A stretch of DNA of 64,000 nucleotides, taken from assembly GCF_965641715.1 (NCBI RefSeq), contig NZ_OZ282453.1; one strand, written 5' to 3'. Positions 57,215 through 57,553 of the stretch are shown here, in pieces. Position 1 is the stretch's first letter. Each line of letters opens with the position of its first letter. Made by a program: the position numbers and the translations under genes. The notes under the pieces were generated by a model. It saw nothing but the letters and a program-made list of their open reading frames with translations. It searched no databases and was not told the DNA's origin. Source of the DNA: Escherichia coli. GTDB taxonomy: Bacteria; Pseudomonadota; Gammaproteobacteria; Enterobacterales; Enterobacteriaceae.

Positions 57215-57375
57215 GATTTTTCCTCTTTCACATAGTGGGTTCCACAGCAAAGAGACGCGGAACCCTGGAGTTGTTTAGGTATCCGGATGAACAACCAGAC
57301 CGCAGCCGTGGCGTTGCATCGGATGAGATGGCGTATAAGTTCTACCTTTTGGTAAGACATGTCAACCCGAATTCT

Positions 57376-57500
57376 AAAATTGGTTAACCACATCACAAGA
57401 ATTTCACTCTCATGGTTGTTGCTGCAAATTGCAGCAAAGGGTAATCGATGGTTATTGATCAGAGGATGTGACATTCATCGCAACAATGGTTGACCAATTT
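57376..57500. promoter_or_regulatory. uxuA-gntP divergent control region with palindromes resembling UxuR/ExuR operators
   Basis: AAATTGGTTAACCA (perfect TGGTTAACCA palindrome) and AATGGTTGACCAATT (imperfect); operator assignment is inference. Confidence 0.5.
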
Positions 57501-57553
57501 ACATAACATGTCGCCCAAAATAACAACGGTTCAACCAGGTAAGGTAAAACGTT

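What the first reader, a model, noticed from the sequence alone, without database searches (positions are those of the whole stretch)
57215..57553. Paired palindromes in the uxuA-gntP divergent region
The spacer contains AAATTGGTTAACCA and AATGGTTGACCAATT, similar to each other and to GntR/FadR-family operator half-sites. Both uxuAB and gntP are reported to be under UxuR/ExuR control, so one operator per promoter is plausible.
Basis: partly seen in the sequence, partly recalled or inferred. Interest (0 to 1): 0.25.

Follow-up and report, generated by a model that had tools for sequence, protein, structure and literature searches.

The report
Known UxuR operators between gntP and uxuA
The two palindromes are real and are the already described binding sites of the sugar-acid repressor UxuR in the E. 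coli gntP-uxuA control region, so the finding is correct but ordinary; the only possibly new point is that the ~10-helical-turn distance between the two sites is kept across several genera.

Summary
The window is the E. coli fimH-gntP-uxuAB-uxuR locus. They are far above chance: 2 matches against 0.07 expected. With a matrix trained only on non-Escherichia sites, they and a third site upstream of uxuR are the three best hits in 64 kb. Both sites are invariant in E. albertii and Citrobacter, while the DNA between them has diverged beyond alignment.

The literature already places UxuR binding in this spacer (genomic SELEX, PMC5934670) and lists gntP and uxuAB as UxuR/ExuR targets. The finding is therefore correct and already known.

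My additions are inferred, not shown:
- Site 2 lies between a conserved CRP site and the gntP -10, at about -24.5.
- Site 1 lies at about -55 of a uxuA promoter conserved in six genera (TTGACA-17-GAAyTT), overlapping a CRP-like half-site.
- The centre-to-centre distance of two operators is 102-106 bp in Escherichia, Citrobacter, Cedecea, Erwinia and two Enterobacter-labelled genomes. This holds even where the second operator lies in the uxuA leader and there is no divergent gene, which hints at cooperative binding or looping.

Interest is low.

The parts
57377..57394 (.). Operator 1 (uxuA side): AAATTGGTTAACCACATC, a UxuR-type 18-bp palindrome
   Evidence: 21.5 bits. The core AAAATTGGTTAACCA is invariant in E. 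albertii and four Citrobacter genomes. The same composite TGTGA-N2/3-TGGTTAACCAATT occurs upstream of uxuA in Cedecea, Erwinia, Providencia and Enterobacter sp. R1.
57483..57500 (.). Operator 2 (gntP side): ACAATGGTTGACCAATTT, a UxuR-type 18-bp palindrome
   Evidence: 21.9 bits. CAATGGTTrACCAAT is invariant across Escherichia and Citrobacter. An exact 30-mer around it is present in 5192 of 5426 E. coli genomes.
57467..57482 (+). CRP site of the gntP promoter: TGTGACATTCATCGCA (1 mismatch to TGTGA-N6-TCACA), centre 57474.5, about -41.5 (class II position, inferred)
   Evidence: TGTGA and TCGCA are invariant in the six-genome alignment. The position relative to the start site is inferred from the conserved -10.
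57504..57509 (+). Inferred gntP -10 hexamer TAACAT; the start site would be near 57516
   Evidence: Invariant in the Escherichia/Citrobacter alignment. No experimental start site was available to me.
57382..57397 (-). CRP-like site overlapping operator 1: TGTGATGTGGTTAACC on the minus strand (2 mismatches), centre 57389.5, about -59.5 from the inferred uxuA start
   Evidence: The TGTGA directly abutting the operator recurs in Citrobacter, Cedecea, Erwinia, Providencia and Enterobacter sp. R1. In Enterobacter sp. Ag1 the same site is centred at about -60.5.
57360..57365 (-). Inferred uxuA -35 hexamer TTGACA
   Evidence: It lies 16 nt after the operator core in Escherichia, Citrobacter, Enterobacter sp. 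R1, Shimwellia, Cedecea and Enterobacter sp. Ag1.
57337..57342 (-). Inferred uxuA -10 hexamer GAACTT (17-nt spacer); the start site would be near 57330, giving a leader of about 116 nt
   Evidence: GAAyTT or GATGTT occurs at the same 17-nt distance in all six genera. The hexamer is weak, as expected for a CRP-dependent promoter. Inferred, not mapped.
54430..54447 (.). Third UxuR-type operator, AAACTGGTCAACCAAATA, in the uxuB-uxuR spacer. A weaker neighbour lies 20 bp away at 54450-54467.
   Evidence: (21.3 and 10.9 bits). It lies upstream of the uxuR promoter GTGCCA-17-TATAGT, which is listed in PMC3946193.
56030..57214 (-). uxuA, mannonate dehydratase
   Evidence: NCBIfam TIGR00695, E = 4e-239. 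RefSeq annotation.
57554..58897 (+). gntP, annotated as fructuronate transporter or gluconate permease GntP
   Evidence: NCBIfam NF007459, E = 1e-273. K-12 annotation 'fructuronate transporter'.
53501..54274 (-). uxuR, the GntR/FadR-family repressor that recognises the operators
   Evidence: NCBIfam NF007588 'Uxu operon transcriptional regulator', E = 3e-176.

Best explanation
The two palindromes are the operators of the GntR/FadR-family repressor UxuR, probably shared with its paralogue ExuR. They control the divergent, CRP-dependent gntP and uxuAB promoters.

Without hexuronate, a UxuR dimer sits on each 18-bp site:
- At gntP, the operator (centre about -24.5) fills the space between the CRP site (about -41.5) and the -10 hexamer. 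RNA polymerase therefore cannot bind.
- At uxuA, the operator (centre about -55.5) overlaps a CRP-like site at about -60. Repression there most likely works by keeping CRP, or the polymerase alpha subunit, off the DNA.

Fructuronate or glucuronate releases the repressor and both promoters fire.

What is shown here or in the cited papers: the sites exist, they are significant and conserved, UxuR binds this spacer, and these genes are UxuR-repressed. What is inferred: the promoter positions, the CRP overlap and the two different modes of repression.
For: - Sites and statistics.
- The locus is gntP-uxuAB-uxuR of E. coli.
- UxuR's only genomic SELEX peak is the gntP/uxuA spacer, and binding falls with glucuronate: PMC5934670.
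- A near-identical palindrome acts as a UxuR operator when placed between -35 and -10 of a synthetic promoter: PMC8092373.
- gntP and uxuAB are derepressed by uxuR deletion: PMC10016265 and PMC9369180.
- Phylogenetic footprints: both operators, the CRP site and TAACAT are invariant between Escherichia and Citrobacter, while the 68 columns between them are not alignable.
- The module operator-16 nt-TTGACA-17 nt-GAAyTT is conserved in six genera.
Against: - I could not read the primary mapping papers (Blanco 1986; Klemm 1996; Bates Utz 2004; Tutukina 2016). The transcription start sites are therefore inferred, not checked.
- The consensus scan picks a different uxuA promoter (TTGTGA-16-TAGAAT), which would put operator 1 in the promoter spacer. 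That -10 depends on an A at 57376. The base is G in K-12, the exact 30-mer is absent from about three quarters of E. coli genomes, and the hexamer is not conserved in Citrobacter.
- The CRP-like site over operator 1 has two mismatches and is weaker in E. albertii (TGTGG).
- Genetics says ExuR also represses uxuAB, but I found no convincing separate ExuR-type box. The best candidate scores 4.4 bits.
Confidence: 0.88

Rival explanations
1. The two operators work as one unit. UxuR dimers on the two sites, 106 bp (about 10 helical turns) apart on the same face of the DNA, contact each other and loop out the DNA between them, which includes the gntP CRP site. Both promoters are then shut cooperatively, rather than each operator serving only its own promoter. 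This adds to the main explanation rather than replacing it.
For: Centre-to-centre distances between two strong operators upstream of uxuA:
- 106 bp in three Escherichia genomes.
- 104, 104, 105 and 104 bp in four Citrobacter genomes.
- 102 bp in Cedecea and in Enterobacter sp. Ag1.
- 104 and 103 bp in two Erwinia genomes.
- 105 bp in Enterobacter sp. R1.

The distance holds although the sequence between the operators is not alignable between Escherichia and Citrobacter. By contrast, a 79-nt indel occurs in the adjacent leader.

In Cedecea and Enterobacter sp. Ag1 there is no divergent gene. A co-directional csp-like gene and its terminator lie upstream. The second operator sits in the uxuA leader at about +46, so there two operators flank one promoter.

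A related FadR-subfamily repressor, LldR, is reported to repress through looping between two phased operators (PMC8689689).
Against: - The sample is small and not phylogenetically independent: probably two ancestral arrangements.
- Shimwellia (86 bp to a weak site), Providencia (13, 144 and 157 bp), Klebsiella sp. BIGb0407 (142 bp) and Enterovibrio do not fit.
- In Erwinia and Enterobacter sp. R1 a divergent MFS transporter gene is present, so one operator per promoter also explains those pairs.
- I found no evidence that UxuR forms tetramers, and no paper linking UxuR to looping.
Confidence: 0.3
2. The sites are bound mainly by a different GntR-family protein than UxuR, for example ExuR alone or another sugar-acid regulator with a similar TGGT-N2-ACCA preference.
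For: - ExuR is a close paralogue. UxuR matches the ExuR model at E = 8e-75.
Against: - UxuR alone selects this spacer in vitro.
- In K-12 the TGGT-TA/CA-ACCA subtype is found at uxuR, uidA and uidR, whereas the exuT/uxaC, uxaB and exuR regions carry TGGTATAACA-type boxes.
- An ExuR-type matrix scores the two sites at only 5.6-5.8 bits.
Confidence: 0.08
3. The palindromes are chance matches in an AT-rich spacer, with no regulatory role.
For: Short AT-rich palindromes are common in intergenic DNA. The loose core pattern TTGGTNNACCAA with one mismatch is only mildly enriched (5 hits against 2.0 expected).
Against: - The full 18-mer statistics.
- Invariance across genera against a diverged background.
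- Recurrence of the same motif upstream of uxuA orthologues in at least seven genera.
- Published UxuR binding in this spacer.
Confidence: 0.01

Closest known systems
UxuR/ExuR operators of the E. coli hexuronate (Ashwell pathway) regulon. From memory and reference lists these were predicted by Rodionov et al. 2000 and Suvorova et al. 2011, and UxuR binding at gntP was shown by Bates Utz et al. 2004. The genomic SELEX is in Shimada et al. 2018 (PMC5934670).
   Same: Same locus, same sequences, same regulator. This is the thing itself, not an analogue.
   Different: Nothing differs in kind. This strain differs from K-12 at two spacer positions (57376 A for G; 57510 G for A), both just outside the operators.
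LldR operators O1 and O2 of the E. coli lldPRD promoter. LldR is a FadR-subfamily repressor, and looping between phased operators is described in PMC8689689, citing earlier work.
   Same: The regulators are of a related type: LldR is the third-best NCBIfam match of UxuR. In both cases two palindromic operators lie about 100-130 bp apart around a promoter. In Cedecea and Enterobacter sp. Ag1 the uxuA operators flank the promoter just as O1 and O2 do.
   Different: In E. coli both uxu operators lie upstream of the uxuA start and serve two divergent promoters. Looping by UxuR has not been shown.
Generic GntR/FadR-subfamily operator (inverted repeat built on TGGT...ACCA half-sites, bound by a winged-helix dimer)
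   Same: The cores TGGTTAACCA and TGGTTGACCA have AT-rich flanks and dyad symmetry. The closest solved relatives of UxuR are FadR-subfamily proteins, PdhR and NanR.
   Different: NanR binds direct GGTATA repeats as several dimers (PMC8012715 abstract). The uxu sites are single inverted repeats.
lac O1-O3 and gal OE-OI auxiliary-operator loops (textbook knowledge)
   Same: Operators are separated by an integral number of helical turns (about 92 and 113 bp) and enclose or abut a CRP site.
   Different: Different repressor family (LacI/GalR). For UxuR this is only an analogy.

Membership tests
UxuR/ExuR operator (hexuronate regulon) | 18-bp inverted repeat matching AAATTGGT-N2-ACCAATTT | tested here: met
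   Both sites lie within 3 mismatches of the consensus. They score 21.5 and 21.9 bits with a matrix trained on other genera. The operator used in the UxuR biosensor is AAATTGGTATACCAATTT (PMC8092373).
UxuR/ExuR operator (hexuronate regulon) | Located in the promoter region of hexuronate or hexuronide catabolic or transport genes | tested here: met
   The sites lie in the spacer between uxuA (mannonate dehydratase) and gntP (fructuronate transporter). The same motif occurs upstream of uxuR, uidA and uidR in K-12.
UxuR/ExuR operator (hexuronate regulon) | Cognate regulator gene present | tested here: met
   uxuR lies at 53501-54274 (NF007588, E = 3e-176). UxuR orthologues lie next to uxuA in the other genera that carry the motif.
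UxuR/ExuR operator (hexuronate regulon) | Conservation of the site in orthologous regulatory regions | tested here: met
   The sites are invariant in the E. albertii and Citrobacter alignment. The motif recurs in Cedecea, Erwinia, Shimwellia, Providencia and Enterobacter-labelled genomes.
UxuR/ExuR operator (hexuronate regulon) | Direct, inducer-sensitive binding of the repressor to the site | not testable with these tools
   Literature only. The UxuR SELEX peak falls in this spacer and is reduced by glucuronate (PMC5934670). That result resolves the spacer, not the individual sites. The gel-shift paper (Bates Utz 2004) was not held.
Class II CRP-dependent promoter (gntP) | CRP site TGTGA-N6-TCACA centred near -41.5, with a weak or absent -35 | tested here: inconclusive
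   A conserved site with 1 mismatch is centred 41.5 bp upstream of the start site implied by the conserved TAACAT. The start site itself was not verified.
Paired-operator looping repression (LldR/LacI-like) | Two operators separated by an integral number of helical turns, with the distance conserved | tested here: inconclusive
   The distance is 102-106 bp in 12 genomes of five genera and in two topologies. The lineages are few and there are exceptions.
Paired-operator looping repression (LldR/LacI-like) | The repressor forms higher oligomers that bridge the two sites, and repression depends on helical phase | not testable with these tools
   There is no solved UxuR structure. I found no paper on UxuR looping.

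The most novel reading that the evidence does not exclude
The gntP-uxuA control region may be a phased two-operator device. UxuR bound at two sites about 10 helical turns apart would form a loop or another cooperative complex. The partner operator can lie on either side of a composite CRP/UxuR site: upstream in Escherichia and Citrobacter, where it doubles as the gntP operator, or downstream in the uxuA leader in Cedecea, Erwinia and Enterobacter sp. R1. At uxuA the repressor would then act mainly by displacing CRP at about -60, not by blocking the core promoter.
Probability: 0.3. Interest if true: 0.3.

Novelty: already known. Interest (0 to 1): 0.1.

Why it matters
As it stands, the finding is a correct re-discovery of textbook-level E. 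coli regulation. It is useful mainly as a positive control for the scan.

If the conserved ~10-turn spacing and the CRP overlap reflect real cooperativity and anti-activation, that would refine the mechanism of a regulator now used in fructuronate/glucuronate biosensors. It would also add a second FadR-subfamily example of loop-based repression beside LldR. That would be a modest advance for specialists and would not be a surprise.

Tried and rejected
- **RNA element in the spacer or uxuA leader.** Rfam found nothing at E <= 1. The 165-nt leader folds no better than shuffles (z = -1.3).
- **Consensus-scan uxuA promoter** (TTGTGA-16-TAGAAT). Rejected as the ancestral promoter. Its -10 needs an A at 57376, which is G in K-12. 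The exact 30-mer is present in only 1350 of 5426 E. coli genomes, and the hexamer is not conserved in Citrobacter.
- **Small plus-strand ORF** (57328-57387, ATGGCG...TAA). It keeps its frame between E. coli and Citrobacter, but most substitutions change the amino acid. I read the conservation as promoter constraint (reading).
- **Separate ExuR-type box** in the conserved block 57346-57363 (CTTTTGGTAAGACATGTC). A matrix built from K-12 exu-regulon sites and the '-32' sites of other uxuA genes gives only 4.4 bits.
- **Perfect 19-bp palindrome** TTGCTGCAAATTGCAGCAA as a conserved factor site. It is degraded in E. albertii and in L001, and absent in Citrobacter.
- **lgoR/lgoD as a further UxuR target in the window.** That locus is not in this window.
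- **Experimental start sites.** I looked in the supplements of three open papers and found nothing usable. Five key papers were not held.

Full report
**1. What is there**

The window carries the E. coli fimH-gntP-uxuA-uxuB-uxuR locus, in the reverse of K-12 orientation.
- uxuA is 56030-57214 on the minus strand.
- gntP is 57554-58897 on the plus strand.
- uxuB is 54489-55949 and uxuR is 53501-54274, both on the minus strand.

These assignments rest. The 471 bases around the spacer are 100% identical to E. coli chromosomes annotated gntP | uxuA, and they occur in 5404 of 5426 complete genomes. The coordinates given in the finding, 57215-57553, are exactly the 339-bp spacer.

As 18-mers they are AAATTGGTTAACCACATC (57377-57394, 'operator 1') and ACAATGGTTGACCAATTT (57483-57500, 'operator 2'). 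Their centres are 106 bp apart. Each is an imperfect palindrome, and each is the reverse complement of the other at 13 of 14 positions.

**2. More than chance**

The 18-bp consensus with up to three mismatches hits only these two places in 64 kb. The expectation is 0.07, and none of 100 shuffles gave two hits.

To avoid circularity I trained a weight matrix only on sites from Citrobacter, Cedecea, Erwinia, Shimwellia, Providencia and Enterobacter-labelled genomes. With that matrix:
- The three best scores in the window are operator 2 (21.9 bits), operator 1 (21.5) and a third site in the uxuB-uxuR spacer (54430-54447, 21.3).
- The next best score is 13.8.
- The best score in 50 shuffles was 19.2.

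All strong sites in the window therefore lie in the uxu locus.

**3. What is already known**

[quoted passage not shown] Binding fell as glucuronate was added (PMC5934670).
- A UxuR biosensor uses AAATTGGTATACCAATTT as its operator, placed between the -35 and -10 of a synthetic promoter (PMC8092373).
- gntP and uxuAB are described as members of the UxuR/ExuR regulon and as derepressed in uxuR mutants (PMC9369180; PMC10016265).
- These papers all cite Bates Utz et al. [quoted passage not shown] I could not open those papers.

**4. Comparative evidence gathered here**

A scan of one genome per species with the UxuA protein returned 80 loci. gntP is divergent from uxuA only in Escherichia and Citrobacter.

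In a six-genome alignment of the spacer the following are invariant or nearly so:
- Both operators.
- A CRP site, TGTGAyAyyyATCGCA (57467-57482).
- The hexamer TAACAT (57504-57509).
- A block at 57337-57367.

The roughly 68 columns between the operators are not alignable. Escherichia also carries a 79-nt insertion in the uxuA leader.

The same operator motif recurs upstream of uxuA in Cedecea, Enterobacter sp. Ag1, Enterobacter sp. R1, Shimwellia, Erwinia and Providencia, always with a uxuR orthologue nearby.

**5. Inferred promoter geometry (inference, not mapping)**

*gntP.* The conserved TAACAT implies a start near 57516. That puts the CRP site at about -41.5, a class II position, and operator 2 at about -24.5. 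Operator 2 then lies between CRP and the -10, where a bound repressor would exclude RNA polymerase.

*uxuA.* The consensus scan proposes TTGTGA-16-TAGAAT around operator 1. I do not think this is the ancestral promoter:
- Its -10 depends on an A at 57376, which is G in K-12.
- The exact 30-mer occurs in only 1350 of 5426 E. coli genomes.
- It is not conserved in Citrobacter.

Instead, six genera share the module TGTGA-N2/3-TGGTTAACCAATT, 16 nt, TTGACA, 17 nt, GAAyTT. In the window this gives a -35 at 57365-57360, a -10 at 57342-57337 and a start near 57330.

Operator 1 is then centred at about -55.5. It overlaps a CRP-like site (TGTGATGTGGTTAACC, centre about -59.5), and in Enterobacter sp. 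Ag1 the equivalent site is centred at about -60.5. At uxuA the repressor therefore most likely interferes with CRP-dependent activation rather than sitting on the core promoter.

The third operator, upstream of uxuR, also lies upstream of the -35 of the promoter GTGCCA-17-TATAGT, which is listed in PMC3946193.

**6. The one point that may go beyond the literature**

The centre-to-centre distance between two strong operators is:

| Genomes | Distance (bp) |
|---|---|
| Three Escherichia | 106, 106, 106 |
| Four Citrobacter | 104, 104, 105, 104 |
| Cedecea and Enterobacter sp. Ag1 | 102, 102 |
| Two Erwinia | 104, 103 |
| Enterobacter sp. R1 | 105 |

The topology differs between groups. In Escherichia and Citrobacter the partner operator lies upstream of the composite CRP/operator site and serves gntP. 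In the other genomes it lies downstream, in the uxuA leader.

In Cedecea and Enterobacter sp. Ag1 there is no divergent gene at all. A co-directional csp-like gene and its terminator lie upstream. In Erwinia and Enterobacter sp. R1 the divergent gene is an MFS transporter rather than GntP.

About ten helical turns, kept through sequence turnover and in two topologies, suggests cooperative binding or looping. This has been reported for the related repressor LldR (PMC8689689).

The evidence is thin:
- The independent lineages are few.
- Several genomes do not fit: Shimwellia, Providencia, Klebsiella sp. BIGb0407 and Enterovibrio.
- Nothing is known to me about UxuR tetramers.

I rate this reading at about 0.3.

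**7. UxuR versus ExuR**

In K-12 the TGGT-TA/CA-ACCA subtype occurs at gntP/uxuA, uxuR, uidA and uidR. The exuT/uxaC, uxaB and exuR regions carry TGGTATAACA-like boxes. A matrix built from the latter scores the two sites at only 5.6-5.8 bits, and the conserved promoter-spacer block at 4.4 bits.

The sites therefore look primarily like UxuR sites. Where ExuR acts on uxuAB remains unresolved from sequence.

**8. Verdict**

The feature is already known. Interest is low (0.1). There is a modest possible refinement concerning phased operators and the CRP overlap, which would need bench work to establish.

Noticed in passing
window 57419-57437: A perfect 19-bp palindrome, TTGCTGCAAATTGCAGCAA (9-bp arms, 1-nt centre), lies between the two operators. 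It is not terminator-like. The exact 30-mer occurs in 4193 of 5426 E. coli genomes. The palindrome has one mismatch in E. albertii, is degraded in L001 and is absent in Citrobacter. Its function is unknown; it may be a lineage-specific protein site or chance.
   Followed up: partly
window 57376 (also 57510): This strain has A where K-12 has G at 57376, immediately next to operator 1. On the minus strand this turns CAGAAT into TAGAAT and creates a near-consensus promoter (TTGTGA-16-TAGAAT) whose spacer is operator 1 itself. The allele is in a minority of E. coli genomes: the exact 30-mer occurs in 1350 of 5426. It could give this lineage a stronger, less CRP-dependent but still UxuR-controlled uxuA promoter.
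   Followed up: partly
window 57236-57315: Escherichia carries a roughly 79-nt insertion in the uxuA leader relative to Citrobacter. It contains two hairpin-forming inverted repeats (GGTTCC...GGAACC and GTTGTT...AACAAC). It is single-copy in E. coli genomes, has no Rfam match, and folds no better than shuffles overall.
   Followed up: partly
window 57337-57367: The spacer of the inferred uxuA promoter (TGTCTTACCAAAAGGTA) is almost invariant between Escherichia and Citrobacter, far more than a promoter spacer needs to be. It contains TTGGTAAGACA, a weak resemblance to ExuR-type boxes (4.4 bits). It may be the missing ExuR site or another factor's site; this is unresolved.
   Followed up: partly
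window 54430-54467: Two tandem UxuR-type sites lie 20 bp apart in the uxuB-uxuR spacer: TATTTGGTTGACCAGTTT (strong) and CTTACTGGTCAATCAAACT (weak), both read on the minus strand. They lie upstream of the uxuR promoter GTGCCA-17-TATAGT. A REP-like element (gccggataaggcgttcacgccgcatccggc) lies in the uxuR leader.
   Followed up: partly
L001 (E. coli strain SCPM-O-B-8794) 2014-2500: This E. coli-labelled genome keeps uxuA, both operators and the CRP site, but has no gntP. The sequence diverges completely from the window just beyond the gntP ribosome-binding region.
   Followed up: no
L019-L057 (e.g. L029, L053, L056), about 32 nt upstream of uxuA: A second class of uxuA genes (about 77% identical) occurs in Enterobacter, Kluyvera, Kosakonia and as second copies in Citrobacter. 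These genes are divergent from uxuB. They carry a different conserved box, ATATTGGTATAACAACTT, 32 nt before the ATG. It matches the ExuR-type boxes upstream of K-12 exuR, uxaB and uxaC/exuT.
   Followed up: partly
window 14903-14918: A perfect CRP consensus, TGTGATCTCAATCACA, sits next to sequence homologous to part of the K-12 btsT-tsr intergenic region. The K-12 lgoRTD genes are not found in the window, so this strain differs from K-12 in that neighbourhood.
   Followed up: no
window 19454-19471: TAATTGGTATGACAGCTA scores 20 bits with the ExuR-type matrix. It lies in an AT-rich stretch overlapped by ORFs at 18942-19943 (minus strand) and 19330-19749 (plus strand). It may be chance in AT-rich accessory DNA.
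   Followed up: no
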